Source: Thermoanaerobaculia bacterium
GTDB taxonomy: Bacteria; Acidobacteriota; Thermoanaerobaculia; Multivoradales; UBA5704
Assembly (NCBI GenBank): GCA_035637095.1
Contig: DASPXX010000345.1
Location: 1,660 to 65,659, forward strand
Direction: 5' to 3'
Length of the DNA stretch: 64,000 nucleotides
Made by a program: the position numbers and the translations under genes. Every line of letters starts with the position of its first letter. Position 1 is the stretch's first letter. Positions 3,202 through 37,164 of the stretch are shown piece after piece. The notes under the pieces are model-generated. The model saw only the letters and a program-made list of their open reading frames with translations. It made no database searches and was not told where the DNA came from.

Positions 3202-3210
3202 GAGGACGCC

Positions 3211-5505
3211 ATGCGCATCACTCGAATCACCGCCCTGGCTGCCGGAGCGATCCTCTGGGCGAGCCTGGCGCCGCTTGCGGCCCAGGAGGCGGCACAAGGT
3301 GAGGCGAAGGGGTTCTCCTTCACGGTCGACCCCCTGGTCCTCGGTTACGAAAGCGTCAGCAACGACACCGACTCGGCCAAGTTCGTCGAGTACCGCGACT
3401 TCGACGACGGCCCCCTCGGCTTCCTGAGAGTCACCGGCGCGAGCGGTGACGGCGAGCGGTACCTCGACCTCAATGGCACGCGGATCGGCCGCGAGGACGG
3501 CCGCTACACCTTCGGGTACGGCGCGGTCGGCCGCTACAGCCTCCTCGTCGACTACAACCTGATCGTCCACCGCTTCGGCAACAACGGCCACATGCTGTTC
3601 ACCCGCACCGGCGACGGCCGCTACGAGATCCCGGACGCCACGCAGCTGGCGCTCCAGAACGCGATCACGGCCAACCAGAGCCGGCTCACCTTCCCATTCC
3701 TCCGCAACCTGCTCGCTCCGTACCTGGCCACCGCCAACGAGGTGGACCCGAGGCTGCAGCGCAAGCGGCTTCTCGTCCGTGCCGATCTCGGCCGGATGGC
3801 CGCGTTCGACTGGGGCCTCGAGCTCTTCCAGGAGAAGCGGGACGGTACCCGGCCGTTCGGCGCCACCTTCGGCTTCAACAATGTCACCGAGCTCCCGGAG
3901 CCGATCAACTACACGACCCGTGACGCCGAGCTCTCCGGCGAGTGGAACGGCGACAGAGGCGGCCTGCGCTTCGGCTACCGTATGTCCAACTTCAAGAACG
4001 ACACTCCCACGTTGATCTGGGACAACCCGTTCCGGTTCACCAGCTCGACCGACCCTGGGGCCTACTCGGCGCCCACCACCTCCTCGGTGAACGGCTCGGC
4101 TCTCGGCATCGCCGACCTGCCGCCGGACAACAAGGCGAGCCAGCTCTTCGTGAGCGGGCGCACCCGCTTCGGCTCGTCGTGGTTCGTCAACGGCAGCGCG
4201 GCCTACATAGAGATGAAGCAGGACGATCCGCTGCTCCCCTACACCCTGAACAACTCGATCGTGGGGATCGCCTCCAACGGCTCGACCTTCGATCCGACGA
4301 ACCCGGCGAACCTGCCGGCGCGCAACGCCGACAACAAGGTCGACGTGACGAACTTCACGGCGCAGGCGGGCAGGGATCTGGGCGACAATCTGGATCTGAC
4401 GTTCCGCTACCGCTACTACGACTACGACAACAAGTCGAAGCGCATCGAGTTCCCCGGCTACGTCCGCTTCCACGCGGTTTGGGAACCCATCGCGCGCATC
4501 TCGGTGCCGTATGCCTACACGCGGCAGGACGCCAGCGCCGAGCTCGGTTGGGACATCGGCACCAGGAGCCGTCTCGCCTTCTCCTACGGCCTCCAGCTCT
4601 GGGACCGCGAGTTCCGTGAGGTGGAGAGCTCGGACGAGAACATCCTGCGGGCGTCCTTCGACACCCGGCCGCTGGACCGGCTGACCCTGCGGGCGCGCTA
4701 CGAGCATGGCGACCGCTCGATCGACGGCTATGACGTCGATGCGGCCGAGGCCACCTTCGTCGAGCCCGAGGCTTCGACCAACATCCCCACGCTGCGCCGC
4801 TATGACGAGGCAGCGCGCACCTACGACGAGTACAACACGCAGGCGCAGTGGTTCGCCAGCGACACGTGGAACTTCACCTTCGGCGTGACCGGACGCTCCG
4901 AGGACTACGACAAGAGCCAGTTCGGTCTGATCTCCGACGAGATCTATCAGTACAACGCCGAGGCGGCCTTCGTGCCGAGCGATGCGCTGACCTTCTACCT
5001 CTTCGGGCAGTGGGCGGACCGCACGAGCTTCCAGAAGGCCCGGCAGTCCGGCGCGACGCCCTCGACCAATCCGCTCGACAACTGGCAGGTGAAGTTCGAC
5101 GAGAGCACGGCGACGTTGGGCCTCGGCCTGACCACCACCTTCGCCGAGCGCTGGACGGCCGACCTTTCGGTGCAGCGGTCCGACTCGAACGGCAACGCCG
5201 ACTTCACCGCCTTCCGGGGCGGCCTGCCGCTGGCGTCGCCGGGTCCCGGCCTGCCGGCCCGGACCGCGGCCCAGGACTTCGCGAACTATGAGGACACCGA
5301 GCTGACCGCGGCCCTGGCCAAGCTGGAGTACAAGATCAACAAGCAGTTCTCGCTCGGCCTGTCCTACCTCTGGGAGGACTACACCATCGACAGCTTCATC
5401 CTGCAGGACCTCCAGAACTACCTGCCGGGTGCGCTCCTCCTCGACGCCAACAACGGCGACTACACGGGCAAGGTGTTCACGTTCGACGTGGGCATGCGCT
5501 TCTGA
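3211..5505 (+). CDS. Outer-membrane beta-barrel porin, MtrB/PioB family (decahaem-associated)
   Basis: Starts 10 nt after the decahaem gene. It has a signal peptide (...SLAPLAAQEA). The 764-aa protein is Gly/Tyr/Asp/Asn/Thr-rich with an alternating-strand pattern and ends ...FDVGMRF (terminal Phe). The family call rests on synteny plus composition. Confidence 0.8.
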   Translation: MRITRITALAAGAILWASLAPLAAQEAAQGEAKGFSFTVDPLVLGYESVSNDTDSAKFVEYRDFDDGPLGFLRVTGASGDGERYLDLNGTRIGREDGRYTFGYGAVGRYSLLVDYNLIVHRFGNNGHMLFTRTGDGRYEIPDATQLALQNAITANQSRLTFPFLRNLLAPYLATANEVDPRLQRKRLLVRADLGRMAAFDWGLELFQEKRDGTRPFGATFGFNNVTELPEPINYTTRDAELSGEWNGDRGGLRFGYRMSNFKNDTPTLIWDNPFRFTSSTDPGAYSAPTTSSVNGSALGIADLPPDNKASQLFVSGRTRFGSSWFVNGSAAYIEMKQDDPLLPYTLNNSIVGIASNGSTFDPTNPANLPARNADNKVDVTNFTAQAGRDLGDNLDLTFRYRYYDYDNKSKRIEFPGYVRFHAVWEPIARISVPYAYTRQDASAELGWDIGTRSRLAFSYGLQLWDREFREVESSDENILRASFDTRPLDRLTLRARYEHGDRSIDGYDVDAAEATFVEPEASTNIPTLRRYDEAARTYDEYNTQAQWFASDTWNFTFGVTGRSEDYDKSQFGLISDEIYQYNAEAAFVPSDALTFYLFGQWADRTSFQKARQSGATPSTNPLDNWQVKFDESTATLGLGLTTTFAERWTADLSVQRSDSNGNADFTAFRGGLPLASPGPGLPARTAAQDFANYEDTELTAALAKLEYKINKQFSLGLSYLWEDYTIDSFILQDLQNYLPGALLLDANNGDYTGKVFTFDVGMRF

Positions 5506-6376: not shown

Positions 6377-6520
6377 ATGGAAAACGTTCTCGCCCTCCAG
6401 AGCCTGACGTCCGTCGCCGACCCTCTCGACGACGAGATGTGCTGGTCCACCTGTAGCTCGAGCGGCTGCAGCTCCTCGTCGGTGTTCGTGCCGGACGCCG
6501 GCTGCGTCGACAACGGGTAA
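6377..6520 (+). CDS. Class III lanthipeptide precursor A1 (47 aa)
   Basis: Not in the ORF track. AAGGAG SD precedes the ATG. Product: MENVLALQSLTSVADPLDDEMCWSTCSSSGCSSSSVFVPDAGCVDNG. The leader has a VLALQ box. The core has S-x2-S-x3-C (S24..S27..C31), 10 Ser/Thr and 4 Cys. It lies 70 nt upstream of the LanKC gene. Confidence 0.8.
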   Translation: MENVLALQSLTSVADPLDDEMCWSTCSSSGCSSSSVFVPDAGCVDNG

Positions 6521-6530
6521 TCGCTTTGCC

Positions 6531-6590: not shown

Positions 6591-9293
6591 ATGTCCAGCA
6601 TCGAAAAGTTCACCTACACTCTGGCCCATCCCGAGTTCTATGAGCCTCTCGATTTCTTCGCCACCGACGAGGTCCGCTACCAGCGCCATCTCCGCGAGCT
6701 CCTTCCGAACGACTGGAAGGTGATGCGGGAGAGCGTCTGGCTGCACTGCATGCCTCCCGATGCGCGCCTTGTCTATCAAGGATGGAAGATCCACCTGTCC
6801 GCGGTCACTCCGAACGCGGTCGATCTCTTTCGCACCGTCATCCCCGTCCTGGTCCGCGAAAACGTCACATTCAAGACCTGCGCCGCGCCGACCATCCTGT
6901 CGATCATGGTCAGCAAGCGGTGGCACCGCGGCGGGGCCGGCAAGTGCATGACCGTCTATCCCTTCGATACCGATCACTTCATCGATCTGATCGAGCTCCT
7001 GCATCAGGCCACCCTCGGTCATGAAGGTCCCTACATTCTTTCGGACCGCAGATACAAGGACAGCAAGTGCGTCTTCTATCGCTATGGAGGGATCGCGCCG
7101 CGCAGCTCGCTGACCGCCAAGGGCGATCGCGTGCCCTACCTGCTTTCGCCGGAAGGCGAGCAGGTCCCCGACCGCCGCCAGGCCTGGTTCCATCTGCCGC
7201 CCTGGGCCAAGGACCCGTTCGCCAGCGAAACGGCTTCCACCGCGCCGGCGATGAATACTCTCAAAGGCGGGAGGTACCGGCCCGAGGCGGCCCTGCGCCA
7301 CACCAACTCGGGGGGCCTGTATCTGGCTCTCGACACGGCGACGGGTGAGAAGGTCGTTATCAAGGAGGCCCGCCCGCTGACCAATGTCGACCCGACCGGC
7401 GGCACCGAGGCGAAGGACCTCCTGGCCCGGGAATACCGGCTGCTCACGCTGCTCGACGGGGCCGGGGTCGGTCCGCGCGCCATCGATTTCTTCCAGGAAT
7501 GGGAGCACACCTTCTTCGTGCAGGAGTACCTGGACGGCATGACGCTCCGCCAGCACTCGATCCTGCACAACGTGGCCCGGTTCTCCCAGCCGTCGCCGAC
7601 CCATTTCGCGGAGTTCTACAGCGAGCTCCGGCGCGTCTTCGAGCAGCTGGCGGTCATCCTGCAGACCCTCCACCGGCACCAGGTCGTCTTCCGCGATCTG
7701 TCGCCGACGAACGTGATCATCTTGAAGACCGGAGAGGTCCGCCTGGTGGACTTCGAGGCGGCGTCGCAGCTCGGCGTCGATCCGATGAGCAACCTTTTTA
7801 CCCCCGGCTTCGCTTCGTCGGATCACTTCTCGAGCGACCTGCCGCAGTTCGAGAACGACTATTTCTCACTGGGCGCGCTGATGCTCGCCTACCTCATGCC
7901 GATGCACGCCGCCCTCGGTCTCGATACGTTGATGCATCACCGGTTCATCCGCTCGATCGGCGACGACTACGGTTTCCCCGAGAGTCTGATCGATCTGATG
8001 AACGGGCTGATGAGCCGCGATCCCGCCCTGCGTCCGGCGCCGGACGCGGTGCTGGAGATCCTCGCCCATCCCTCTCCCGTGCGCGAGCCCCAGATGGGCA
8101 GGAACGCCGGCCTGCCGGACGACAAGCTGCGCGAGGCGGTATCCCGGATCGTGCACTACACGCTCCGCCAGGCGACCCCGGAACGCAAGGACCGGCTCTT
8201 CCCTTGTGATCCCAAATCGTTCGCGACCAATCCCCTGAGCCTCGCCTACGGCGCCTGCGGCACGGTCTATGCCCTGCACCGGCTCACCGGCGAGGTCCCG
8301 GCCGAGCTGACCGAGTGGATCCTCCGCAAAGAGATCACGACGGACTCCTATGCGCCGGGCCTCTACAGCGGCATGGCGGGTATCGCCTGGGTGCTCCTGG
8401 AGCTGGGCTTCGTCGATCAGGCGCGGGAGATCCTCGACAAGGGGCGCAACCATCCGGTCCCGCAGATCCATGACCTGTTCTACGGCCTGGCCGGTTGGGG
8501 CATGACGCAGCTCAAGTTCTATCACGAGCTCGGCGAGTTGGAATATCTGGACGAGGCCGTCCGCACCGGCCGCGAGCTGCTGAAGACGCGAATCCCCGGA
8601 GACGACGGCTGCCACTGGGCTGCGTCGGAAGAGCTCTTCTTCGGATTGGCCCACGGCGCGAGCGGCGTGAGCCTCTTCCTGCTCTACCTGTACCTCGCGA
8701 CCGGCAACGAGGAGTTTCTTCGCGTCGGGCAGGAGGCTCTGGATTTCGATCTCGCGCAGGCCGTGGACCTGGGAGAAGGATTGCTCTGGCCGAGCCGCAC
8801 CGGCCCGCTGCGCACCGTGGTGCCCTACTGGAGGTATGGCAGCGCGGGCGTCGGCGCCGTCCTGCTCCGCTACAGCCGCGTGGCGGACAACGAACGGTAC
8901 CGGCAGCTCCTGCAGGGGATCAAGCGCGCCGCGATCCGCAAGTACGCCATCTTCCCCCACCGCGGATTCGGCCTGGCCGGCCTGGGGGAATTCCTCGTCG
9001 ACATGGCGCAGCACGGGATCGACGCGGAGGAGTGCAGGGAGGCCGCCCGCAGCGTGGCTTCAGGGGTGATGCTCTTCCACCTGGACAAGGAGAGCGAAGG
9101 CATCGCCTTCCCCGGCGCCGATCTCTGGAAGATCAGTTGCGACTACACCGCCGGAAGCGCGGGGATCGCTCTGTTTTTCGACCGGCTGCTGAGCCGCCGG
9201 CCGGCCGATTTTCTGCTGGACGAGCTGTTCCCGGCCGCGGCTGCTCCGCGTCTCGAGCCATCCGCGGTCGAGGCGGCCGGAACGGCTCGCTGA
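6591..9293 (+). CDS. Class III lanthipeptide synthetase (LanKC: lyase-kinase-cyclase)
   Basis: N-terminus: QGWKIHLS, FKTC, GKCMTVYP (pSer/pThr-lyase-like). Middle: VVIKEA, FRDLSPTN, VDFE (protein kinase). C-terminus: GxxG helix-pair repeats (GMAGIAWVL, GLAGWGM, GLAHGASGVS, GSAGVGAVL, GLAGLGEF, GSAGIALFF). WRYG replaces WCxG and SCDYTAG replaces CHG, so the Zn ligands appear absent. Confidence 0.85.
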   Translation: MSSIEKFTYTLAHPEFYEPLDFFATDEVRYQRHLRELLPNDWKVMRESVWLHCMPPDARLVYQGWKIHLSAVTPNAVDLFRTVIPVLVRENVTFKTCAAPTILSIMVSKRWHRGGAGKCMTVYPFDTDHFIDLIELLHQATLGHEGPYILSDRRYKDSKCVFYRYGGIAPRSSLTAKGDRVPYLLSPEGEQVPDRRQAWFHLPPWAKDPFASETASTAPAMNTLKGGRYRPEAALRHTNSGGLYLALDTATGEKVVIKEARPLTNVDPTGGTEAKDLLAREYRLLTLLDGAGVGPRAIDFFQEWEHTFFVQEYLDGMTLRQHSILHNVARFSQPSPTHFAEFYSELRRVFEQLAVILQTLHRHQVVFRDLSPTNVIILKTGEVRLVDFEAASQLGVDPMSNLFTPGFASSDHFSSDLPQFENDYFSLGALMLAYLMPMHAALGLDTLMHHRFIRSIGDDYGFPESLIDLMNGLMSRDPALRPAPDAVLEILAHPSPVREPQMGRNAGLPDDKLREAVSRIVHYTLRQATPERKDRLFPCDPKSFATNPLSLAYGACGTVYALHRLTGEVPAELTEWILRKEITTDSYAPGLYSGMAGIAWVLLELGFVDQAREILDKGRNHPVPQIHDLFYGLAGWGMTQLKFYHELGELEYLDEAVRTGRELLKTRIPGDDGCHWAASEELFFGLAHGASGVSLFLLYLYLATGNEEFLRVGQEALDFDLAQAVDLGEGLLWPSRTGPLRTVVPYWRYGSAGVGAVLLRYSRVADNERYRQLLQGIKRAAIRKYAIFPHRGFGLAGLGEFLVDMAQHGIDAEECREAARSVASGVMLFHLDKESEGIAFPGADLWKISCDYTAGSAGIALFFDRLLSRRPADFLLDELFPAAAAPRLEPSAVEAAGTAR

Positions 9294-9320: not shown

Positions 9321-10334
9321 ATGAGCAAACCACTGATCAGTTATTCCTTGACGCGCCATCCCAGCCAGTCCCGCATCGCGTCGGCCTACATCGACGCTCT
9401 GCGCGAGCGCTATGAGATGGTCAGCAGCCAGGACGACGCCGACGTCGTCATCGTCCACCATGCGCCGCGCAACTACGAGACGGTCTATGCCCTGCATCCC
9501 GCGCTCGAGGACAGCTATGTGATCTCCTGCTGCGTAACGCATGCGGACGTCCTGCCGCCCCACTGGCAGCGCAACCTGGCGCGCGTCCAGGAAATCTGGA
9601 CCTGCTCGCGGTATTGCCATCAGATCCTGTCGCGGTACCACCCGAAGGTGACTCACATCCCCTATGTGGCCGAGCGCGACTTCACCTGCTCCGCCACCGC
9701 CCTCGAAGGCATCCGCCGGATGATCGATCACGACGAGGACAACGTCTATTTCCTGAACATCGCCCTCAGCAATCATCCCCGGAAGAACGTCCAGACGCTG
9801 GTCGAGAGCTTCAAGAAGGTGGCCGCCGCCATGCCGAAGGCGCGGCTGGTGCTCAAGGGGATGCCGCAGGACGTGCCGACCTGGTCGCCCCACCCGCAGG
9901 TCCTGTTCCTCCCGTTCCAGATGCCGTTCGAATACATCAGCGCTCTCTACCGGCTGAGCGGCGTGTACGTCAGCACGCACCGCTCGGAGTCCTGGGGCCT
10001 CACGATGTCGGACGCCATCCTCTGCGGCAAGCCCGTCATCGCGACCGGCTATTCCGGAAATCTGGACTACATGAACGAGGACAATGCGTTCCTGCTCTCC
10101 TACCGCGAGAGCGCCATTCCGGGGCAGGCCCTCGGGGTGGAGCTCGACGGGGCGACCTGGGCCGATCCGGATCCGGCCAGCCTCGAAGAGAGATTCCTGT
10201 ACCTGTACGAGACGCATGCCAGCGAAGCGACCCGGCAGAAGGCCGAGCGGGCGCGCCAGGAGATCCTTCGCTTCAACCGGCCGTATGTCACGAACCTGAT
10301 CCATCAGAGCATCGAATCGGCCCTCGCCGGCTAG
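9321..10334 (+). CDS. Glycosyltransferase (GT-B fold, GT1/GT4-like)
   Basis: C-terminal motif STHRSESWGLTMSDAILCGKPVIATGYSGNLDYMNEDNAFLL (E-x7-E type). Starts 27 nt after the LanKC gene. Confidence 0.75.
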   Translation: MSKPLISYSLTRHPSQSRIASAYIDALRERYEMVSSQDDADVVIVHHAPRNYETVYALHPALEDSYVISCCVTHADVLPPHWQRNLARVQEIWTCSRYCHQILSRYHPKVTHIPYVAERDFTCSATALEGIRRMIDHDEDNVYFLNIALSNHPRKNVQTLVESFKKVAAAMPKARLVLKGMPQDVPTWSPHPQVLFLPFQMPFEYISALYRLSGVYVSTHRSESWGLTMSDAILCGKPVIATGYSGNLDYMNEDNAFLLSYRESAIPGQALGVELDGATWADPDPASLEERFLYLYETHASEATRQKAERARQEILRFNRPYVTNLIHQSIESALAG

Positions 10335-11347: not shown

Positions 11348-13801
11348 ATGTTTGGACTCCGCCAGCTCTCCCTGTTCACGCGCGAGGTGCGCTTCGCCGC
11401 GCGCGCGCTGCGCAAGAGCCCGGTGTTCACGCTCACGGCGGTGCTGACCCTGGCCATCTGCATCGGCGCGAACACGGCGCTGTTCAGCGTCGTCGATGCG
11501 GTGCTGCTGCGCCCGCTCCCTTACCCGCAGCCGGAGCGGCTGGCCGAGGTGATCACCCGGTTCGAGGACAAGGGTCCCGAGCAAGACGAGGATTCGCACT
11601 CCGGACAGACCTGGTTCCTCATCCGGGATCACGCGGAAGGGTACGACGCCGCCGTCTCCTCGGGTCTCGCCTCGGGAGTCAACTTTGCGGCCGCCGGCCG
11701 GGTGGAGTACGTGCAGCAGGAACGGGTGGGAGCCGGCTTCTTCCGCGTCCTCGGCATTCCGCCCCTCCTCGGACGGGAGATCTCTCCCGAGGAAGACACG
11801 CCGGGAGGCCCGGCGGTGGCGGTGCTCAGCCACCGCCTGTGGCAGCGGGTCTTCCATGCCGATCCTGCCGTCCTCGGCCGCGTCGTCCTGCTGCGCGGCG
11901 TTCCCCATGTCGTCGTCGGGGTCATGCCGCCCGGCCTGGTGACCACGGGATCGGCCGACCTGTGGACGCCCCTCCAGCCCTCGACGACCGGCGAGGGCGA
12001 GGATGAGAACTACCGCGTCATCCTCCGCCTCCACGAGGGGACGGCCTGGCCGCAGGCCGTGGCCCGGATCGCCACGCTCGGCCAGACGGCGCTCACGGAG
12101 AGGCGTGCGGAGGACCCCTCCGTCCGCCTCACGCTCGTACCGCTCCAGCGGGGCCTCACCGAGACGGTCCGCAAGCCGCTCCTCGTGCTCTGGGCCGCGG
12201 CGGGCATGCTCCTGTTGATCGGGTGCGTGAACATCGCGAGCCTGCTCCTCGCGCGGGCGGTCGAGCGCAGCCGTGAGACCGCGACCCGGCTCGCGCTCGG
12301 GGCGGGGCGGACGACCATCCTCCAGCAGCTCCTGGCCGAGAGCCTGCTCCTCGGCGTGAGCGGCGGGCTCGGCGGCCTGCTCCTCGGTTTCTGGGCCTTG
12401 CGCGCGGTCAAACCGCTGGCGCATGGCAGCCTCGAGCTGTGGCAGGAGGTCACGCTCGACACCCGGGTGCTCGCCTGGTCGATCGGCGCCTCGCTCCTCG
12501 CCAGCTGTATCTTCGGCCTCCTTCCCGCGCTCCAGATCCGCCGCGTCGACATCCGTTCGACGCTCGGCGAAGGGGGCCGCGGAAGCACAGGGAGCGGGCA
12601 CCGGTGGGCGAGGCGCCTGCTGGTGATCTCCGAGGTCGCGCTGAGCGTCGTCCTCCTGGTCTGCGCCGGCCTCTTCCTCCGCACCTTCTCGGCGCTCCGC
12701 GCGCTCCAGCCCGGCTTCGATGCGAACAACGTGACGACCGCCCAGCTGTCCTTGCAGGATGCGCGCTATACCACGAGCCGGCAGATGAACCGGCTGTTCA
12801 CCGACACCCTGTCGCGCATCCGCGAGCTGCCCGGGACCGAGGGAGCCGCGGTCGGGCTGGGATTGCCCTATGAGCGCCAGCTCAGAATGGGTTTCCAGCT
12901 CATGGACGGCGCCGAGGCCGCGGGACCCGGCGGCAACACCACCGCGACCTACGTGACGCCGGATTACTTCGCGGTGCTGCGCATCCCGCTCGTGCGCGGC
13001 CGCCTGCTGCGCGACAGCGACGGACCGGAGGCGGGCAAGGTGGCCGTGGTCAACCAGGCCTTCGTCCGCCGCTATCTGCCACAGGGAGAGCCGATCGGCC
13101 GGCACATCCAGCTGGCCGGCGAGACGCGCGAGATCGTCGGCGTCGTCGGCGACGTCCTCCAGCAATCGGGAGGGACGAACGGTCCGATCGCTCCTCTGCC
13201 GGCGACCCTCTTCCCGGCGGCGCAGGCGAGCGACGACATGATCCAGCTCGTGCACACCTGGTTCTCACCGAGCTGGATCGTGAGGACCGGAGAACGCCCC
13301 GACCAGGCGGCGCTCGGCATCCAGCGCGCGATCGAAGCCGTCGATCCCCGGCTGCCCATCGCGAGCTTCCGCGGCATGGAAGACGTCGAGAGGCGCGCCA
13401 CGGCCCGGCAGCGCTTCCAGGCCATCCTCCTGGCGACGCTCGCCGTCCCCGCCGCGCTCCTCGCCGCGATCGGCATCTACGGTCTGATCGCCCACGCGGT
13501 CGCCGAGCGACGGCGCGAAGTGGGCATCCGGCTGGCGCTGGGCGCCACCCGCTGGCAGACGATCCGGGCCGTCGCGCAACCGGGCATCCTGCTCGCTCTT
13601 GTGGGCACCGCGCTCGGCTGCCTTCTGGCGCGAGTCGCCGTCAAGTCGCTGCAACATCTCATCTGGGGAGTCCAGGCCACCGACCCCGGCACCTTCGCCG
13701 CGGTCACGCTGGGCCTCCTCCTCGTGGCCACCGCCGCCAGCATCCTGCCCACGTTGCGCCTGAACCGGCTCGACCCCTCCCAGACCCTGCGCGATTCGTG
13801 A
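11348..13801 (+). CDS. ADOP-type duplicated MacB/FtsX-like permease (acidobacterial duplicated orphan permease family)
   Basis: 817 aa. The N-terminus ...[48 protein letters not shown] is typical of the family. There are two FtsX-like halves and no adjacent ATPase gene. Confidence 0.8.
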
Positions 13802-14002: not shown

Positions 14003-14504
14003 AGCTCACCCACCGTACAGATCAAGGCAGTTCCGGCCGGGCGGCACGGGCGCGTGGACGGAGATCAGCCGGTTCTTTTACTCGTCGCAATCCCACCGTA
14101 CGGATCAGGGCAGTTCCGACGATAACTACGTCGCGATCGCGGGGAGGCTAGGCAAGTCGCAATCCCACCGTACAGATCAGGGAAGTTGTCGCATCCGAAA
14201 AGCCCCCGAAGGGGGCGACAGAATGTAGCCCGGGGTCAGAGCGACGAAGGAGCAGCGACCCCGGGTAAGGAGCACCCACTCTTTTCCAAGCCCCAGAGGG
14301 GCGGCAGCAGCCTCTCGTCGCAACCGACCACCGTACAGATCAGGGCAGTTCCGGCGCACTGGATCATGTCGGAGCAGATGGCCAACTGAATCACGTCGCA
14401 ATCCCACCGTACAGATCAGGGAAGTTCCAAGGATGAAAGCAGCCGATGGCTGCAACGTCACGATTGAGTCGCAATCCCACCGTACAGATCAGGGAAGTTC
14501 CAAG
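14003..14504 (-). CRISPR. CRISPR array 1 (6 repeats of 37 nt; no cas genes in the window)
   Basis: Repeat as written on the + strand: GTCGCAATCCCACCGTACAGATCAGGGAAGTTCCAAG. Copies: about 14003-14036 (degenerate, partial), 14084-14120, 14156-14187 (truncated after GGAAGTT), 14317-14354 (degenerate), 14395-14431 and 14468-14504 (both exact). Spacers are 35-47 nt and lower in GC. Degeneration at the low-coordinate end and the conserved flank on the right imply minus-strand transcription. In that sense the repeat ends in ATTGCGAC. Confidence 0.85.
14199..14275. repeat. GC-rich palindromic element inserted inside CRISPR array 1
   Basis: Follows the truncated repeat 14156-14187. Contains hairpins GCCCCCgaaGGGGGC and CCCGGGGtcagagcgacgaaggagcagcgaCCCCGGG. 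Confidence 0.5.
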
Positions 14505-14722
14505 GGCGGCCGTTCCAACCCTCTGAGTCCACAGGCACTTAAGTTGGGTCTTTTTATGACCCGGCTCGAAGGTCGTCTCTGCTTCTCGTTTTCCACAGCC
14601 TTTCAGCTCACCTCCTCTCTGGTAACCTCTTGAAGGCCGGGCACTTCCGGTCCTTTTATGATCTCCCCGTCAAAATGGCACTTTGAGGCTGGCATGCTTT
14701 TTGTCTGGCACACCGCTTGCTT
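14505..14722 (-). promoter_or_regulatory. CRISPR leader 1 (conserved with 35694..35910)
   Basis: About 220 nt with roughly 85-90% identity to the flank of array 2. AT-richer patches are present (TTTTTATGA, TTTTATGAT, CAAAATGG). Confidence 0.6.
14706..14721 (+). promoter_or_regulatory. Sigma-54-type -24/-12 promoter motif pointing away from the array
   Basis: TGGCACaccgcTTGCT against the consensus TGGCAC-N5-TTGCW. GG and GC are exactly 10 nt apart. The paralogous site at 35894 keeps both elements while the N5 spacer differs. Confidence 0.45.
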
Positions 14723-14822
14723 CCACTCGGCGACCATGACAGGGCTGCTGCCCAAATAATCCTACTCTCTTTGCCGCGGCTTGGGGAGATCTTCCTCCCC
14801 AGTTCCTCTTCATAGGCCGGAT

Positions 14823-14976
14823 CCCGGCGAGATGCCCGGCTCGTCGCGTTGTTGCTTCAGTTTTCAAAGAGCGCAGGGGATCGGGCGCAGCCTGGCCCCT
14901 CTGACTTCTCTAGACACAGGTTGCCGGCGGATTGTTGGACGCGGCCCAATCTTCCCTCGGCAGGGCGGCCACCGCC
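14823..14976. other. 153-nt conserved non-coding block, copy 1 (paralogue at 36257..36410)
   Basis: About 92% identity between copies. Substitutions do not favour synonymous sites in any frame I checked. A small stem AGGGG...CCCCT is kept with a changed loop. Confidence 0.5.
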
Positions 14977-15007
14977 GGCGTCTCGCCAGGGCGAACACCG
15001 GTCCTCA

Positions 15008-15322
15008 CGGGGCGAAGGCCGGCTGTCTTGGGGCGGAGGCCGGTACTCGCGGGGCGAAGGCGAGGACTGACGGGGCGAACATCGGGACTGACGGGGCGGA
15101 GGCCGGGACTGACGGGGCGAAGCTCATCCCTGCAGGGGGAAAGGCTCCCCCAGGAGGGATGACCTCGTACCCAACAGGGGCGGCCGTCGCCCCTCTTGGG
15201 GGAGCCGTCGCCCCAGCAGGGATGAGCTCGTACCCAGCAGGGGGGACCTCGTACCCGTCAGAGGGGAGCTCGTACCCAGTAGGGGGGAGCTTCCCCCCAA
15301 CACGGGCGGCCGTCATCCCAGA
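15008..15322. repeat. 21-bp phased minisatellite, copy 1 (about 15 units)
   Basis: G-runs start at 15009+21n for n=0..13 with no indel. The first 6 units resemble CGGGGCGRRGGCNGGGACTGA. The later units are GGGG-N-CCCC mini-palindromes (for example GGGGCGgccgtCGCCCC and GGGGGGAgctTCCCCCC). Confidence 0.85.
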
Positions 15323-15396
15323 CAAAACGCGAAGACGCGCGACGCTTCCTTGCTTGCGGCCCATCCGTACCATGGAGCTTGTCGTGCGCCGACACC
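15317..15396 (+). promoter_or_regulatory. Conserved block upstream of precursor A2 (paralogous to 6247..6325)
   Basis: Same sequence block as upstream of A1. It directly abuts the last minisatellite unit. Confidence 0.35.
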
Positions 15397-15424
15397 TTCA
15401 CAACACAAACGTAAGGAGAAGACA

Positions 15425-15568
15425 ATGGAAAACGTTCTCGCCCTCCAGAGCCTGACGTCGATCGCCGATCCCCTCGACGACGAGATGTGCTGGTCGACCT
15501 GCAGCTCCAGCGACTGCAGCTCCTCGTCGGTGTTCGTTCCGGACGCCGGCTGCATCGACAACGGCTAA
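15425..15568 (+). CDS. Class III lanthipeptide precursor A2 (47 aa)
   Basis: This is the C-terminal part of ORF 15350..15568, and an AAGGAG SD precedes ATG 15425. Product: MENVLALQSLTSIADPLDDEMCWSTCSSSDCSSSSVFVPDAGCIDNG. It differs from A1 by V13I, G30D and V44I. Confidence 0.8.
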   Translation: MENVLALQSLTSIADPLDDEMCWSTCSSSDCSSSSVFVPDAGCIDNG

Positions 15569-15578
15569 ATCGCTTGCC

Positions 15579-15639: not shown

Positions 15640-17301
15640 ATGGATCGCACAGAACAATTCACGGACTCCCTGGCCGGCGCGTTGCTGTTCGACGGCGAGA
15701 TTCGCGACAGAGAGCTGCAGAAATCCATGCGCAAGGAGGTGCGCGTCCAAGGCTTCGACGTCTTTCTCGCCGGGTTTGCCAAGGCGCTCCTGGCCCACAG
15801 CCGTCTCGGGCCCGTGCACGTGACCCGGGAAGCGGCCACCTCGTTCCTGCGCGCTGCGCCGCCCTGGCTTCAGGAGCATGCGGGGCGCCTCTCCATGGTG
15901 TCCGCGAACGATCCGTCGGAGCTCGCGTCGATCGCGCGGCTGGTCCTCCTGTCGGTCGGTCCGGAGATGATCCAGCTCGCCTGGCTCCGCTCGCGGCTGC
16001 ACCGGCCCGACTGGCCGATCACCGCGATTCTTCATTCCCTGTCTCCCGCGCCCCGGATCCGCTATTTCTTCACCAGCGCGCTCCTCCCTATGCTCGGCCG
16101 GCACGATGCGTTCGTCTGCCCCAGCCGCGCGGCGAAGAAGGCGCTCGAAAACCTGTTCTTCTCGGTTCCCGAGGAGATCCGCTCCTGCTCCACCATTCCG
16201 TTCGAAATGCCGGTCATCCCGTTCGGGATCGATTTCCACGAGCATGCATCGATCGGCAAGGAGGAGGCCCGCCGCACCCACGGCATCCCCTCGTCGGCGG
16301 TGGTCTTCCTGTGCTTCGGCCGGCTGGCGATGGACAAATGCGATCTGCTCCCCTTGATGATCGCGTTTTCCCAGCTTCCCAAGGACTCGGGCGCCGTCCT
16401 TCTGATGGCCGGGGATGATACGCAGCTCAGGATGGGCTCTCCACTCCTGGGGCTCGCCCGGGAGCTCGGCTGCGGCGACCGCGTGCAGATCCTGACCGAC
16501 GTGAGTCGGACGGCGAAGCTGGAGATCTTCGCCGCGGCCGACGTCTTCGTCTCTCCCACGGAGAACACCCAGGAATCCTTCAGCATGACTCTCGCCGAGG
16601 CCATGGCGAGCGGCCTGCCCGTCGTGACCTCGGATTGGGGCGCGCACGGCGAGCTCGTGGAGCACGGCGAGACGGGATTTCTGATCCCCACCTATCTGCC
16701 GCCGGTGGCGGAGCCCTGGCACATGCTCACGCTCTATTCGGGGATTCCGCAGGAAAACCTGATCTCGATGAGCACGGCCGTGGACGTGGACCACCTCCTG
16801 CACTCCCTGCAGCTTCTCCTGGCGAGCCCGGATCTCCGGGAGAGGATGGGCCGGGAGGCGAAGCGGCGCGCGGCGGAGACGCTCGACTGGCCGGTCGTGG
16901 TCGGTCAATACGATGCCCTGTGGCTCGAGCTTCTCGAGCGTGCCGGCGCCGTGCGGGCGAAGTCCGGACCTTTCGCCTGCTCGTCGTTTCAGGAGGTCTT
17001 TGCCGGGTACCCGACGCGGTCGCTCCAGGCGGAGGACAGCGTCGAGGTCAACCAGGCTCTCGGCGGCGTGGCCCGCCGGCTCCCGGGCGTCTTGGGCACG
17101 AGCCCGCACTTCGACGCCGACCTCTTCCACCAGGTCATCGCGACTCTCGAATCCGAGGGGCCGACGCGGATCGACCGGCTCGTCGAGCTGGCCGCGGCGC
17201 CCCGGCCGCGCAGCGCCACCGAGGTCGGCCGGCACATCGGCCGCCTGATCAAGTACGGAGTCCTCCGGGTTTCCGCGGGACCCCAGGAGATCGGCCGATG
17301 A
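15640..17301 (+). CDS. GT4-family glycosyltransferase with long N-terminal extension
   Basis: ORF 15487..17301 trimmed to ATG 15640 (GAGGAGGA SD). Motif: ENTQESFSMTLAEAMASGLPVVTSDWGAHGELVEHGETGFLIP. Confidence 0.75.
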   Translation: MDRTEQFTDSLAGALLFDGEIRDRELQKSMRKEVRVQGFDVFLAGFAKALLAHSRLGPVHVTREAATSFLRAAPPWLQEHAGRLSMVSANDPSELASIARLVLLSVGPEMIQLAWLRSRLHRPDWPITAILHSLSPAPRIRYFFTSALLPMLGRHDAFVCPSRAAKKALENLFFSVPEEIRSCSTIPFEMPVIPFGIDFHEHASIGKEEARRTHGIPSSAVVFLCFGRLAMDKCDLLPLMIAFSQLPKDSGAVLLMAGDDTQLRMGSPLLGLARELGCGDRVQILTDVSRTAKLEIFAAADVFVSPTENTQESFSMTLAEAMASGLPVVTSDWGAHGELVEHGETGFLIPTYLPPVAEPWHMLTLYSGIPQENLISMSTAVDVDHLLHSLQLLLASPDLRERMGREAKRRAAETLDWPVVVGQYDALWLELLERAGAVRAKSGPFACSSFQEVFAGYPTRSLQAEDSVEVNQALGGVARRLPGVLGTSPHFDADLFHQVIATLESEGPTRIDRLVELAAAPRPRSATEVGRHIGRLIKYGVLRVSAGPQEIGR

Positions 17302-35071: not shown

Positions 35072-35693
35072 GTCGCAATCCCACCGTACAGATCAGGGAA
35101 GTTTGCGAAGTGCCGGACTGTCCGGCCCAACGGGCCGGGAGAGCCAAGCCCAGGGCATCGAGGCCGCAGGCCGATGCCCTGGGTCAAAAGGCCCCCGCAT
35201 TCCTACGGCCTGAAAGGCCGGGAGAACCTGAACGAAATCGGTAAAATCTCTCGCGACCTTTCAGGCCGCTATCATTGATCGGCTTTCTCTCCCAGGGTGT
35301 CGGCCTACGGCCTCGACCCTGGGCTCCGTTCTCTCGGCCCGTTGGGCCGATTCCTGCCCCCCCACCGTACAGATCAGGGAAGTGGAAGTTCCAAGGGACC
35401 AGGCGGTCTGGCGGCCCACCGGCATGAACCCGTCGCAATCCTACCGTACAGATCAGGGAAGTTCCAAGCAATTCTCTTCAGTATGGACACAACGAGCGCT
35501 CAGAAGTCGCAATCCCACCGTACAGATCAGGGAAGTTCCAAGTGAGACAGAAGCTGTTGGGAATCGTCGCCTTCCTGAAGAAGTCGCAATCCCACCGTAC
35601 AGATCAGGGAAGTTCCAAGAGGTTGAGGCGTTTATCATCAACGATGGCGGAGGTATGTCGCAATCCCACCGTACAGATCAGGGAAGTTCCAAG
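35072..35693 (-). CRISPR. CRISPR array 2 (same repeat as array 1; 6 repeats, one pair interrupted)
   Basis: Repeats: 35072-35103 (truncated after GGAAGTT), 35361-35395 (lacks the first 8 nt and has a 6-nt GGAAGT duplication), 35432-35468 (1 mismatch), then 35506-35542, 35583-35619 and 35657-35693 (all exact). Spacers are 36-40 nt. The leader is on the right. Confidence 0.85.
35104..35360. mobile_element. MITE-like element with about 32-bp terminal inverted repeats, inserted in a CRISPR repeat
   Basis: TIRs: 35124-35155 (GGCCCAACGGGCCGGGAGAGCCAAGCCCAGGG) and 35317-35348 (reverse complement GGCCCAACGGGCCGAGAGAACGGAGCCCAGGG). There are several internal hairpins and no ORF. Confidence 0.5.
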
Positions 35694-35910
35694 GGCGACC
35701 GCGCCAACCCGCTGAGTCTACAGGCACTTAAGTTGGGCCTTTTTACGACCCGGCCCGAAAGCCGTCTCTGCTTCTCGTTTTCCACAGCCTTGCAGCTCAC
35801 CTCCTCTCGGGCAACCCACTGAAAACCAGGCACTTCCGGCATTTTTACGATCCCCCGTCAAAATGGCACTTTGGGGCTGGCATGCTTTTTGTCTGGCATG
35901 TCATTTGCTT
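35694..35910 (-). promoter_or_regulatory. CRISPR leader 2 (conserved with 14505..14722)
   Basis: Aligns end to end with leader 1, including the terminal -24/-12 motif. Confidence 0.6.
35894..35909 (+). promoter_or_regulatory. Sigma-54-type -24/-12 motif, paralogue of 14706
   Basis: TGGCATGtcatTTGCT. Confidence 0.4.
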
Positions 35911-35984
35911 GGGATCAGTGCCACGGTATGGGTCGGACAGTGAGGAACACAGAAGTAATTCTTATCTTCTCCCGCCTCCTGCTG

Positions 35985-36070
35985 GACCGCGAACCCGATC
36001 CAATCACCGCTCACGCGGCGCTCGGCATCCAGCGCGCGATTCCATCCGACGACCCTACCATAACGACCTG
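35985..36070 (+). pseudogene. Fragment of an ADOP-type permease paralogue
   Basis: 36015-36040 is identical (26/26 nt) to 13307-13332 inside the intact ADOP gene. It translates to ...[14 protein letters not shown]... against [14 protein letters not shown]. Confidence 0.4.
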
Positions 36071-36122
36071 GGCAGGCTCCGGCACAGGACGATGATCCGA
36101 TTCCGGCGGCCAAGAACATCGA

Positions 36123-36159
36123 GTCGCAATCCCACAGTACAGATCAGGGCAGTTCCAAG
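36123..36159 (-). repeat. Solitary degenerate CRISPR repeat about 430 nt beyond leader 2
   Basis: GTCGCAATCCCACAGTACAGATCAGGGCAGTTCCAAG has 2 mismatches to the consensus and no neighbouring repeat. Confidence 0.7.
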
Positions 36160-36192
36160 TCAGCGGCAAGTACTTCCCATGTCGCGAAATGG

Positions 36193-36214
36193 AAAAAAAG
36201 GCCCGCGGCCCGCC
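36193..36214 (-). terminator. Possible weak minus-strand terminator (GC stem plus T7)
   Basis: The minus strand reads GGCGGGCCGCGGGCC followed by TTTTTTT. The stem is only 4-5 bp. Confidence 0.3.
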
Positions 36215-36256
36215 TTCTGGGGGAGGCGGAGCCGCGAGGGGCTCGGTGTGCCTGGT

Positions 36257-36410
36257 CCCGGCGAGGCGCCGGGCTCGTCGCGTTCTTGCTTCAGTTTTCA
36301 AAGAGCGCAGGGGATCGGGCGCGGCCTGACCCCTTTGCCTTCTCTAGACACAGGTTGCCGGCGGATTGTTGGACGCGGCCGAATCTTTCCTCGGCAGGGC
36401 GGCCATCGCC
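36257..36410. other. 153-nt conserved non-coding block, copy 2
   Basis: Paralogue of 14823..14976. Confidence 0.5.
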
Positions 36411-36432
36411 CCCGGCGCGTGCCTGGTTCCCC

Positions 36433-36832
36433 TCCGCACGGCGTTCACAGGCCCCGCGACGTGCGCTGCTCCCCTCGCAAGGGCGGCGAGCCCCCTCGGG
36501 ACGTGCGCTGGTCCCCTCGCGAGGGCGACGGCTGCCCTCGCGACGTGCGCCATCGCCCTCGGGACGGCGATGACTCCCCTCGGCACGGCGGCATTCCCCC
36601 TCGCGAGGGCAGCGACGCCCCCCGCGGGGGGAGAGACCGCCCTCCGGAGGGGAGTGACTCCCCCGGCGGGGGGAGTGGCTGCCCCCGGGAGGGGGATGAC
36701 CGCCGTCGCGGGGGCCGTGGTTCCCCTCGCGAGGGAAGTGGTTGCCCTTGCAGGGGCTGCGGCTCCCCTCGCGGGGGGAGAGGCTCCCCTTCCGGGGGAA
36801 ATCGTTCCCCTCTGAAGGGGAGAGGCTGCCGC
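36433..36832. repeat. 21-bp phased minisatellite, copy 2 (about 19 units of CCCC-N-GGGG mini-palindromes)
   Basis: The C-run/T junction falls at 36433+21n (36475, 36496, 36517, 36538, 36559, 36580, 36601, 36643, 36706, 36727, 36748, 36769, 36790, 36811). Example units: CCCTCGCGAGGG, CCCCCCGCGGGGGG, CCCTCCGGAGGG, CCCCTctgaAGGGG. Confidence 0.85.
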
Positions 36833-37164
36833 ACATATCGCAACCATAGTGCTCTCAAGCAAGCCTTCCTCTGAATACAGACTCTCGTGAATCATCCGTT
36901 CGATCATTTCAAAGACCCCCTTGACATCAATACAACAGCCAGGCCAGTATACACGCCGCCGGGAGGAGACGGAAGTCTCGCTCGACGGCGGGGTGCCATG
37001 GAGGCACTCCGTTCAACGGACCCAGGAGGTTCGCCATGAAGAGGCAACACAACGGCATCCGCCGGCCCGGGGCTCTGCGCCTCGGGCCATCCATCAACCC
37101 GTGGCGCGGTGGACGGGACCACCACGCCTGAGGTCGGACTCAACCCCGAGAAAGGAGAGGGACC

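What the first reader, a model, noticed from the sequence alone, without database searches (positions are those of the whole stretch)
14505..15322. A large non-coding module is duplicated beside both CRISPR arrays: leader, outward -24/-12 motif, 153-nt conserved block and phased minisatellite
Seen in sequence: 14505..14722 aligns with 35694..35910 at about 85-90% identity. Both end in a sigma-54-type motif on the + strand, TGGCACaccgcTTGCT and TGGCATgtcatTTGCT. The -24 and -12 elements are conserved while the spacer has diverged. About 100 nt later in locus 1 (about 350 nt in locus 2) comes a 153-nt block at about 92% identity (14823..14976 against 36257..36410). A 21-bp-period repeat array follows immediately (15008..15322 against 36433..36832). 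No frame shows a synonymous-biased substitution pattern, and the long ORFs spanning the module (14781..15455, 35882..36874) have implausible Arg/Gly/Pro composition. In locus 1 the module runs directly into the upstream block of lanthipeptide precursor A2. In locus 2 it precedes an unrelated hypothetical gene. Inference: this is either a paralogous pair of long structured ncRNAs or 5' leaders, or a DNA-level regulatory or architectural element travelling with this CRISPR leader. I know of no described element with this composition.
Basis: partly seen in the sequence, partly recalled or inferred. Interest (0 to 1): 0.75.

Follow-up and report, generated by a model that had tools for sequence, protein, structure and literature searches.

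The report
Long CRISPR leader with upstream minisatellite

Summary
Leader (88%), a 170-nt block (90%) and a 21-bp-period array occur beside both arrays, and no frame looks coding.

The module is not confined to this window. I found it in more than 12 soil-metagenome loci that carry the same CRISPR repeat, and next to cas10 in Thermoanaerobaculia MAGs.

On the crRNA-sense strand (window minus) every copy reads in the same order:
- 21-bp satellite
- "box12" (CGTCCAACAA-N12-CYGTGTC)
- a variable hairpin
- "boxS" (GTTCTTTGACAACTGAAG)
- a GC hairpin
- the TGGCA-repeat motif
- the proximal leader
- the first repeat

Box12 also sits 47-76 nt upstream of the start codon of cas10 (nine loci) and of an RT-remnant/cas1 gene. 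Its spacer has fixed length and free sequence, and it fits the ECF-sigma pattern AA-N16-(C/T)GT. I read it as a cas-type promoter firing toward the array.

BoxS is the cas2 stop region in related loci. The window has no cas genes, so both copies are orphan relics or trans-used arrays.

The sigma-54-like motif lies antisense inside the leader and is only partly conserved, so its function cannot be judged. The satellite keeps its 21-bp period while its unit sequence differs between loci. It is absent from seven cas10 loci, so it is optional and unexplained.

The parts
14084..14504 (-). CRISPR array 1. It is small and decayed, with four recognisable 37-nt repeats and more degenerate ones further left. 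crRNA sense is the minus strand.
   Evidence: D1. The reverse-complemented repeat ends in ATTGCGAC. In L050, L024, L039 and L053, cas1-cas2 lie upstream of the array on the same strand.
14505..14722 (-). Leader A, copy 1. This is the proximal leader plus the TGGCA-repeat motif at its distal end (14677-14722).
   Evidence: 88-90% identical to 35694-35910. 76-92% identical to leaders in L045, L050, L028, L044, L033 and L024.
14706..14721 (+). Sigma-54-type motif TGGCACaccgcTTGCT, antisense to the leader. A second near-match, TGGCATgctttTTGTC, lies 16 nt upstream.
   Evidence: 2 hits, 0.06 expected. Conservation across 8 leaders is.
14825..14846 (.). GC-rich hairpin between boxS and leader A.
   Evidence: The scan calls it terminator-like on the + strand. 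Other loci hold a different conserved hairpin at the same position.
14855..14872 (-). boxS. It reads GCTCTTTGAAAACTGAAG on the minus strand, and the family consensus is GTTCTTTGACAACTGAAG.
   Evidence: In L053 and L039 the same 18-mer holds the last codons and the stop of cas2 and is followed directly by the TGGCA motif.
14875..14900 (-). P2, a variable GC hairpin (GGGG...CCCC) between box12 and boxS.
   Evidence: Present in 11 of 12 block copies, with different inner sequence and length.
14913..14941 (-). box12, a promoter-like element CGTCCAACAA-N12-CTGTGTC that points toward the array.
   Evidence: 2 hits in the window, 0.12 expected. 14 copies in the repeat-anchored loci keep a fixed 12-nt spacer of free sequence. 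It lies 47-76 nt upstream of cas10 or cas1 start codons.
14989..15322 (.). 21-bp minisatellite 1, with two unit types, lying upstream of box12.
   Evidence: 70-79% similar to part of the satellite of the intact locus L050.
35072..35693 (-). CRISPR array 2. It has five or six repeats and is interrupted by a palindromic insertion at about 35105-35360.
   Evidence: D1.
35694..35910 (-). Leader A, copy 2. The sigma-54-type motif TGGCATgtcatTTGCT lies at 35894-35909 on the + strand.
35911..36122 (.). Insertion specific to locus 2. It holds a 17-residue MacB/FtsX-like fragment at 36007-36055.
   Evidence: D14; tblastn E = 0.002. No homolog was found in other loci.
36123..36159 (-). Lone CRISPR repeat with 2 mismatches. 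I take it as the vestige of an array that once lay directly downstream of the block.
   Evidence: L033 has the same arrangement. In L027, L038, L048, L055 and L059 the block directly precedes an array.
36192..36211 (-). Hairpin plus T7 run, terminator-like on the minus strand.
   Evidence: The homologous T7/T8 run occurs in L050 and L059.
36289..36375 (-). Block copy 2: boxS 36289-36306, P2 36309-36334, box12 36347-36375.
   Evidence: (D4).
36455..36826 (.). 21-bp minisatellite 2. Each unit is a CCCCTCGCGAGGGG palindrome plus a 7-nt variable part.
   Evidence: It aligns in register with the L044 satellite at 76.6% over 397 nt, with one 42-nt (2-unit) indel.
36921..36953 (+). Conserved element after the satellite, TTGACAT...CAGCCAG.CCAGTATACAC.
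   Evidence: Conserved in L044. Function unknown.

Best explanation
Each copy is one long CRISPR leader (about 480 nt in locus 1) plus the DNA upstream of it, and it is to be read on the minus strand. From right to left it holds:
- a 21-bp minisatellite
- a two-box promoter-like element (box12) of the kind that stands in front of cas10 and cas1 in related type III loci
- a short transcribed stretch with a variable hairpin
- an 18-nt box (boxS) that is the cas2 stop region in related loci
- a GC hairpin
- the TGGCA-repeat motif
- the proximal leader and the first repeat

Most likely mode of action: box12 is an alternative-sigma (ECF-type) promoter, and RNA polymerase starting there transcribes through the leader into the array. 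This is inferred, not shown. In relatives that keep cas1-cas2, the same promoter sits in front of those genes and reads on into the array. The window has lost (or never had) all cas genes at both loci, so the two copies are orphan arrays. They may be relics, or arrays served in trans by a type III system elsewhere in the genome.

The satellite is an optional accessory that grew by tandem duplication of the 21 bp just upstream of the -35 box. Whether it modulates the promoter is open.
For: Orientation:
- The reverse-complemented repeat ends in ATTGCGAC. That this is a type III handle rests on my own knowledge.
- Decay of the repeats is at the left end of the arrays.
- cas1-cas2 precede leader and array on that strand in L050, L024, L039 and L053.

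Wider conservation:
- Full-length block copies occur in W1, W2, L028, L044, L050, L033, L027, L045, L038, L030 (two copies) and L048, with nhmmer E from 1e-12 to 1e-25.
- Further copies occur in L055, L059 and L060, which were fetched through Cas10 and not through the repeat.
- The order of parts is constant in every locus.

Promoter reading of box12:
- Among the repeat-anchored loci it has 14 copies with two invariant boxes and a 12-nt spacer of free sequence.
- It stands before cas10 in L050 (55 nt from box end to start codon), L041 (57), L054 (52), L055 (62), L058 (59), L059 (58) and L060 (60).
- Diverged forms stand before cas10 in L056 (about 76 nt) and L057 (47 nt), whose Cas10 is 54-55% identical.
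- It stands 57 nt before the RT-remnant/cas1 gene in L050.
- It fits the AA-N16-(C/T)GT pattern. The AA and the GT are the bases shown to be crucial in the ECF-sigma DdvS promoters of the M. xanthus type III-B locus (PMC6061681).
- No sigma-70-type promoter is called in these regions.

Block and leader A as one unit:
- In L053 and L021, boxS is followed directly by the TGGCA motif.
- In L044, boxS and the TGGCA motif are 53 nt apart.
- In L055, L059 and L060 the block lies back to back with the cas10 promoter and faces an array.

No cas genes in the window.
Against: - No transcription data exist. The start site, the sigma factor and the reading-through into the array are all inferred.
- No ECF sigma gene lies within the fetched flanks of any locus.
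- The spacer from AAC to (C/T)GT is 15 nt, and the -10 box is TGT rather than CGT in most copies.
- A GC hairpin lies between box12 and the array, with a T7 run in W2, L050 and L059. It could stop transcription, which would make the block a separate short RNA.
- Most loci were found with the CRISPR repeat as bait. The association with arrays is therefore partly built in.
- Three searches that used the block itself as bait found nothing, and the source contig is missing from that metagenome collection. Block copies away from CRISPR loci cannot be excluded.
Confidence: 0.68

Rival explanations
1. A sigma-54 promoter at the distal end of the leader fires on the + strand. It makes a long structured ncRNA or 5' leader that covers block and satellite, and in locus 1 it drives the lanthipeptide A2 operon.
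For: - Perfect core match TGGCAC-N5-TTGCT at 14706 and TGGCAT-N5-TTGCT at 35894, the only two in 64 kb.
- TTGC is kept in 8 of 8 leaders and GG in 7 of 8, with a free spacer.
- An NtrC-type activator gene lies in the window at about 28475-29860.
Against: - In L050, L045 and L024 the motif points into the 3' end of cas2, antisense.
- The C of GGC is lost in L050 and L044, and a G of GG is lost in L045.
- The L053-type leader has TTCAG instead of TTGC.
- The distance from motif to block ranges from 30 nt to 2.7 kb.
- The block's conserved boxes are directional the other way.
- The block does not fold better than shuffles on the + strand (z = -1.0).
- No Rfam family matches it.
- Precursor A1 has the same 140-nt upstream region as A2 without any module (D10).
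Confidence: 0.1
2. The block is a self-contained small RNA gene on the minus strand. Box12 would be its promoter, the RNA (about 120-190 nt) would hold P2 and boxS, and the GC hairpin would be its terminator. It would act in trans or as an attenuator, not as part of the pre-crRNA.
For: - A GC hairpin directly follows boxS in all copies. It has T-rich tails in L045, L027, L033 and L030b and a T7/T8 run in W2, L050 and L059.
- RNAalifold pairs UUGAAGGG with YUCUUUGA, with G.U pairs that exist only on this strand.
Against: - The terminator scan calls only the W2 copy.
- There are few compensatory changes.
- In L055 and L039, boxS lies 17-35 nt from a repeat with no hairpin between them.
- BoxS doubles as the end of the cas2 coding sequence in L053.
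Confidence: 0.15
3. The 21-bp satellite is a functional cis-element. It would be a phased array (two helical turns per unit) of protein-binding palindromes, or a copy-number rheostat, that controls the box12 promoter.
For: - The period is 21 bp in every locus although unit sequences differ completely.
- It lies directly upstream of a box12 in 11 loci.
- It runs in register into the -35 box in W2, L044, L050 and L041. Match at lag 21 is 8.2 of 21 against a background of 6.0, sd 0.7.
- In W2 vs L044 the stems CCCC/GGGG are conserved while loop and spacer vary (mod-21 chi-square p = 0.017).
- Length changes are in whole units.
Against: - It is absent from all seven Cas10-anchored loci, so the promoter does not need it.
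- Different unit sequences within one assembly (WNGB01: L028, L043, L045, L050) argue against a single binding protein.
- The palindrome is significant in only about half of the arrays.
- The period could simply be inherited, since unequal crossing-over preserves unit length.
- Two satellites (L042, L043) have no box12 next to them.
Confidence: 0.25
4. The satellite and block encode a heptad-repeat protein (ORFs 14781-15455, 35882-36874, or the minus-strand ORFs 15005-15373 and 36344-36907).
For: Long open frames on both strands with PPAGG-like heptads. A gene caller called the 330-aa ORF.
Against: - No Pfam hit and no homolog in 5.8 billion proteins.
- The 88 substitutions between the W2 and L044 satellites fall 28/34/26 on the three codon positions (p = 0.55).
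- Block mismatches fall 6/5/6.
- The GC3 pattern is not that of genes.
- The AT-richer L028 satellite has stops in every frame.
- The open frames follow from 68% G+C and from the palindromic units.
Confidence: 0.02

Closest known systems
CRISPR leaders, and cas-operon promoters that read through into the array. The example is the Myxococcus xanthus type III-B CRISPR4 locus under the ECF sigma factor DdvS (PMC6061681).
   Same: - A type III system.
- Promoters of the AAc-N16-cGT type stand in front of cas genes.
- The leader itself has negligible sigma-70 promoter activity there, and here it has no sigma-70 match.
- The array depends on an upstream alternative-sigma promoter.
   Different: - The -35 box here is CCAAC, not GTAAC, and the -10 is mostly TGTGTC.
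- No sigma/anti-sigma pair is seen nearby.
- The promoter sits inside a cas-less leader about 400 nt from the first repeat.
- A 21-bp minisatellite lies upstream.
- Nothing has been tested experimentally.
Orphan (isolated) CRISPR arrays.
   Same: Small arrays with decayed repeats, insertions inside the array, and no cas genes within tens of kb.
   Different: Besides the leader, they keep the promoter cassette that in relatives is shared with the cas10 and cas1 operons. Two copies lie 21 kb apart and many more occur in related genomes.
Sigma-54 (-24/-12) promoters.
   Same: Exact GG-N10-GC geometry and core consensus at 14706 and 35894.
   Different: The motif is antisense to the unit it lies in. 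It is only partly conserved among homologous leaders, and no sense-oriented downstream gene is shared between loci.
Phased operator or iteron arrays upstream of promoters. Examples from my own knowledge are ARG boxes at 21-bp spacing and the ParR-binding parC repeats of plasmids R1 and pSK41.
   Same: Tandem, partly palindromic units at an integral number of helical turns, directly upstream of a promoter.
   Different: There are 10-40 units. The unit sequence differs between loci of one genome. No cognate binding protein is known, and the array is dispensable in related loci.
Bacterial minisatellites (VNTR-type arrays).
   Same: Head-to-tail units, higher-order 42/63/84-bp periods, whole-unit length changes, and units more alike within an array than between arrays.
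   Different: The array keeps a constant position next to one promoter type across many loci, and its register is continuous with the -35 box in some of them.

Membership tests
CRISPR leader | Directly abuts the first (best conserved) repeat, on the transcription-upstream side | tested here: met
   14505 follows the perfect repeat at 14468-14504 and 35694 follows the one at 35657-35693. The decayed repeats are at the far end.
CRISPR leader | Conserved among arrays that share the repeat, and lying between cas2 and the array where cas genes are present | tested here: met
   76-92% identical in six other loci. It lies between cas2 and the array in L050, L045 and L024.
CRISPR leader | Carries or receives the promoter for the pre-crRNA | not testable with these tools
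   No sigma-70 match. Box12 is a candidate, but there are no RNA data.
ECF-sigma-type promoter | -35 AAC and -10 (C)GT boxes at a fixed distance, with a free spacer | tested here: met
   All 14 copies read CCAAC-N15-(C/T/G)GTGTC. The spacer length is invariant and its sequence is free. The pattern equals AA-N16-CGT of PMC6061681. CGT occurs in 4 copies, TGT in 9 and GGT in 1.
ECF-sigma-type promoter | Stands at promoter distance upstream of genes, on their sense strand | tested here: met
   It lies 47-76 nt before the start codon of cas10 in nine loci and of the RT-remnant/cas1 gene in one locus.
ECF-sigma-type promoter | Cognate sigma factor and a mapped transcription start | not testable with these tools
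   No sigma gene in the fetched flanks, and no RNA data.
Sigma-54 promoter | GG at -24 and GC at -12 with exact spacing | tested here: met
   14706-14721 and 35894-35909.
Sigma-54 promoter | Both elements conserved in homologous copies | tested here: inconclusive
   GG in 7 of 8 leaders, GGC in 5 of 8, TTGC in 8 of 8. TTGC is absent in L053-type leaders.
Sigma-54 promoter | A sense-oriented gene or RNA downstream that is shared by homologous loci | tested here: not met
   Downstream lies antisense cas2 in L050, L045 and L024, the antisense block in W1 and L044, and an unrelated insertion in W2.
Structured ncRNA | Match to a described family, or a structure supported by covariation or by stability beyond shuffles | tested here: not met
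   No Rfam hit for the block. z = -1.0 on the + strand and -0.14 on the minus strand. The alignment covariation term is -0.33 kcal/mol. Only the variable hairpin P2 recurs.
Protein-coding gene | Codon-position bias of substitutions, gene-like GC3, homologs | tested here: not met
Minisatellite under concerted evolution | Tandem units, whole-unit indels between homologous arrays, and units more alike within an array than between arrays | tested here: met
   There is a 42-nt indel between W2 and L044. Unit consensus differs per locus.

The most novel reading that the evidence does not exclude
The 21-bp satellite is a functional, helically phased control array for an ECF-type cas promoter, grown from and in register with its -35 region. 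Its copy number or bound protein would set expression of a type III CRISPR-Cas system. The conserved antisense sigma-54-like promoter in the same leader would form a convergent switch with it. Neither arrangement has been described for CRISPR-Cas regulation.
Probability: 0.15. Interest if true: 0.65.

Novelty: new variant of a known kind. Interest (0 to 1): 0.4.

Why it matters
The work turns an apparently exotic "module" into an interpretable unit. In Thermoanaerobaculia (Acidobacteriota), the type III cas10 operon, the cas1-cas2 genes and the arrays share one conserved two-box promoter of alternative-sigma type.

That gives a testable handle on how an uncultivated soil lineage switches on CRISPR immunity. 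It resembles the single experimentally studied ECF-controlled type III system, in Myxococcus.

It also shows that orphan arrays can keep a complete promoter-bearing leader. That bears on whether such arrays are dead or are used in trans.

The minisatellite is the remaining oddity. Its period is conserved, its sequence is free, and in some loci it runs in register into a -35 box. It is cheap to test with reporters and long-read population data.

Tried and rejected
- Pfam on 10 spanning ORFs: nothing.
- Search of 5.8 billion proteins with the block translated in the open frame: nothing.
- Genome-contig scan with a 20-mer from the block: one chance hit in a Deferribacteres MAG.
- Viral-contig scan with an 18-mer: 13 chance hits.
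- Metagenome-contig scan with back-translated block patterns: 294 candidates, none confirmed. The source contig is not in that collection, so these negatives are weak.
- Contigs that encode window proteins exactly are 99.995-100% identical to the window (one mismatch in L004), so they give almost no variation.
- Rfam at gathering and E-value thresholds: only microRNA-like hits to the long palindrome inside satellite 1, and nothing for the block.
- Idea that satellite units derive from the CRISPR repeat: best matches are no better than shuffles.
- Idea that every satellite unit is a hairpin: significant in only about half of the arrays.
- Sigma-70 promoter scans around block and leader: none relevant.
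- My first reading of the GC hairpin after boxS as a general intrinsic terminator: the scan confirms it only for W2.
- cas1, cas2 or cas10 remnants in the window: none by tblastn.
- Synteny of flanking genes between the window and other loci: none.
Full report
**Check of the observation**

The two loci share these parts:
- the terminal CRISPR repeat plus 218 nt of flank (14468-14667 vs 35657-35856 at 88%; 14665-14722 vs 35853-35910 at 90%)
- a 170-nt block (14816-14985 vs 36250-36419, 90%, 17 mismatches) (alignments)
- tandem arrays of period 21/42/63 that follow at 14989-15309 and 36455-36812 and do not align with each other

TGGCAY-N5-TTGCW occurs twice in the window, at 14706 and 35894, against 0.06 expected. 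None of ten ORFs across the region has a Pfam match. The block's mismatches fall 6/5/6 on codon positions in every frame.

Two things were missed. A lone CRISPR repeat lies at 36123-36159, in the gap of locus 2. And the arrays run on the minus strand.

**Orientation and context**

The reverse complement of the repeat ends in ATTGCGAC. That this is the type III crRNA handle rests on my own knowledge. The perfect repeats abut the conserved flank and the decayed ones lie at the far end. In related loci, cas1 and cas2 precede this flank and the array on the same strand. Hence 14505-14722 and 35694-35910 are true leaders read leftwards.

The window has no cas gene (Pfam; tblastn with Cas1, Cas2 and Cas10).
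- Locus 1 sits inside a class III lanthipeptide cluster. Precursor A1, LanKC, a glycosyltransferase and MacB lie to its left. Precursor A2, a glycosyltransferase, M16 peptidases and an ABC transporter lie to its right.
- Locus 2 lies between a glyoxalase gene and hypothetical genes.

The window comes from a soil metagenome contig, JGI 3300012360 Ga0137375_10000069. Other assemblies hold near-identical copies (100% in four contigs, one mismatch in L004), so they give almost no variation.

**Related loci**

Searches that used the block itself as bait failed. The source contig is missing from the metagenome collection, so these negatives are weak.

A scan with 25 nt of the CRISPR repeat returned 34 loci. 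By blastn and nhmmer the leader recurs in L045, L050, L028, L044, L033 and L024. The block recurs at full length in L028, L044, L050, L033, L027, L045, L038, L030 (twice) and L048. So the block is not a private duplication.

L050 (WNGB01000512.1) is an intact type III locus, as follows:
- cas10 (2572-4329, minus) followed by a RAMP fusion
- then a 1.4-kb spacer
- then a reverse-transcriptase remnant, cas1, cas2, leader and 22 repeats on the plus strand

L045 keeps a frameshifted cas2 between leader and block. L028 keeps 19 codons of it.

**Anatomy on the crRNA-sense strand**

A feature map of all loci gives one order everywhere:
- 21-bp satellite
- box12 (CGTCCAACAA, 12 nt, CYGTGTC)
- a variable GC hairpin, P2
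- boxS (GTTCTTTGACAACTGAAG)
- a GC hairpin
- then either cas2, or the TGGCA motif and proximal leader, or an array directly

BoxS in L053 and L039 is the end of cas2 (..F V L stop) and is followed at once by the TGGCA motif of the leader. In L044 the two are 53 nt apart. The block and "leader A" are therefore two ends of one long leader.

In locus 1 this unit is box12 14913-14941, P2 14875-14900, boxS 14855-14872, hairpin 14825-14846, TGGCA motif 14677-14722, and the first repeat ending at 14504. Locus 2 is the same with a 350-nt insertion. That insertion holds the lone repeat and a 17-residue MacB-like fragment.

**Box12 as a promoter**

All 14 copies in the first set of loci keep both boxes and a 12-nt spacer whose sequence is free. 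Box12 occurs twice in the window against 0.12 expected.

It also stands, in sense orientation, before genes:
- 55 nt before the cas10 start in L050
- 57 nt before a 26%-identical cas10 in L041
- 57 nt before the RT-remnant/cas1 gene in L050

I then fetched seven further loci through Cas10 homologs, independent of the CRISPR repeat. There are 114 homologs, and those that carry an organism name are almost all from Thermoanaerobaculia or Acidobacteriota MAGs. All seven have the element before cas10:
- L054 at 52 nt, L055 at 62, L058 at 59, L059 at 58 and L060 at 60
- diverged forms in L056 (CTTAACAA-N12-CGGTGTC) and L057 (AAACCAA...CGTGTC), whose Cas10 is only 54-55% identical

In L050, L055, L059 and L060 the block lies back to back with this cas10 promoter and faces an array or its remains.

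The motif equals AA-N16-(C/T)GT. That is the pattern (GTAA-N16-CGT) used for the ECF sigma DdvS promoters of the M. xanthus type III-B locus. There the AA and the GT are the crucial bases and the array leader itself has negligible promoter activity (PMC6061681).

I therefore read box12 as an alternative-sigma promoter firing toward the array. The element and its positions are shown. Its activity, its sigma factor and the read-through into the array are inferred. No sigma gene lies in the fetched flanks.

**The sigma-54-like motif**

It lies in the TGGCA motif, antisense to the leader. Among eight leaders, GG is kept in seven, GGC in five and TTGC in all, with a free spacer. The L053-type leader has TTCAG in place of TTGC. 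A second copy 16 nt upstream (TGGCAT-N5-TTGTC) is better conserved but has GT at -12.

In intact loci the motif points into the 3' end of cas2. An antisense sigma-54 promoter is possible. Equally, the three TGCCA repeats on the sense strand may be a protein-binding site of the leader. The sequence cannot decide between these.

**The satellite**

TRF on all loci finds 21-bp-period arrays next to the block in W1, W2, L044, L045, L033, L028, L038, L027, L030, L041 and L050. Unit sequences differ completely. Examples are GCTCATCGGCTGACCCGATGA in L038, GGCTAGATCATCCAGCTCAGA in L028 and CCCCTCGCGGGGGGAGTGGCT in W2. Different units occur within one assembly.

It is not coding:
- The W2 and L044 satellites align in register (76.6% over 397 nt, one 42-nt indel). 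Their 88 substitutions fall 28/34/26 on the three codon positions (p = 0.55).
- By contrast they are uneven over the 21 positions (p = 0.017). The CCCC and GGGG arms are conserved.
- The L028 array has stops in all frames.

Other properties:
- A palindrome is significant in about half of the arrays only.
- Units are not derived from the CRISPR repeat.
- Cut into 21-nt pieces from the -35 box backwards, the array runs in register into the box in W2, L044, L050 and L041. This suggests growth by tandem duplication of the promoter-proximal 21 bp.
- The seven Cas10-anchored loci have no satellite, so it is dispensable.
- W1's satellite is 70-79% similar to part of L050's.

I regard the satellite as an accessory minisatellite whose period is inherited. 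A regulatory role is possible (about 0.25) but unproven.

**Verdict**

It is two cas-less type III CRISPR arrays, each with a long leader that carries the family's cas-type promoter.

New here are the conserved two-box promoter shared by cas10, cas1 and the arrays in Thermoanaerobaculia, and the satellite with conserved period and free sequence upstream of it. The finding is of moderate interest.

Noticed in passing
window 6378-6521 and 15426-15569; 6591-9293; 9321-10334; 15640-17301; 17.3-22.2 kb: A class III lanthipeptide cluster is split by CRISPR locus 1. It has two about 90% identical 47-residue precursors (MENVLALQSLTS...), a LanKC synthetase (RamC_N, kinase and LanC domains), two glycosyltransferases, two M16 peptidases and an ABC exporter. 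The two precursors share only about 140 nt of upstream sequence.
   Followed up: partly
window 14195-14310 and 35105-35360: GC-rich palindromic insertions (MITE-like) lie inside both CRISPR arrays. Similar sequence occurs inside arrays of L043 and L030, and related palindromic elements interrupt L045, L059 and the RT remnant of L050.
   Followed up: partly
window 36007-36055 vs 13299-13347: A 49-nt stretch in the locus-2 insertion is 82% identical to part of the MacB/FtsX gene beside locus 1 (17 residues, tblastn E = 0.002). In L045 a PadR-MacB pair lies beside the satellite.
   Followed up: partly
window 36921-36953 and 37037-37132: A conserved element TTGACAT..CAGCCAG.CCAGTATACAC follows satellite 2 and is shared with L044. 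Just downstream lies a 31-codon ORF (MKRQHNGIRRPGALRLGPSINPWRGGRDHHA) before the gene at 37165.
   Followed up: no
L050 5547-5729: A 60-codon ORF upstream of cas1 begins like a reverse transcriptase (MLDEITSRHTLYAAFDRVRENAG...) and then runs into a palindromic repeat. It is probably the remnant of an RT that once preceded or was fused to Cas1. The RT assignment rests on my reading of the N-terminal motif only.
   Followed up: no
L053 (whole locus, 9.4 kb): Three tandem modules occur, each with a cas1 3' fragment, cas2, leader and array. They use a variant repeat (…CTGTACTGAGGGATTGAGAC) mixed with the window's repeat type. This points to repeated duplication of adaptation-end modules in this lineage.
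   Followed up: partly
L054-L057, L059: The effector operon of this family is cas10, a 610-750-residue RAMP fusion, several further RAMP genes and a TIR-SAVED (or NACHT-TIR) protein. L056 has a divergent cas6 and an HTH_3 gene.
   Followed up: no
window 59576-61375 (-), 31128-34208 (+), 28475-31263 (-): Other genes of possible defence or regulatory interest in the window are a 599-residue TIR-domain protein, a 1026-residue SNF2-family helicase beside array 2, and an NtrC-type sigma-54 activator with its GAF histidine kinase.
   Followed up: no
L059 691-866: Three box12 copies lie within 180 nt, one facing the array and two in tandem facing cas10. The promoter region itself is therefore prone to local duplication.
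   Followed up: no
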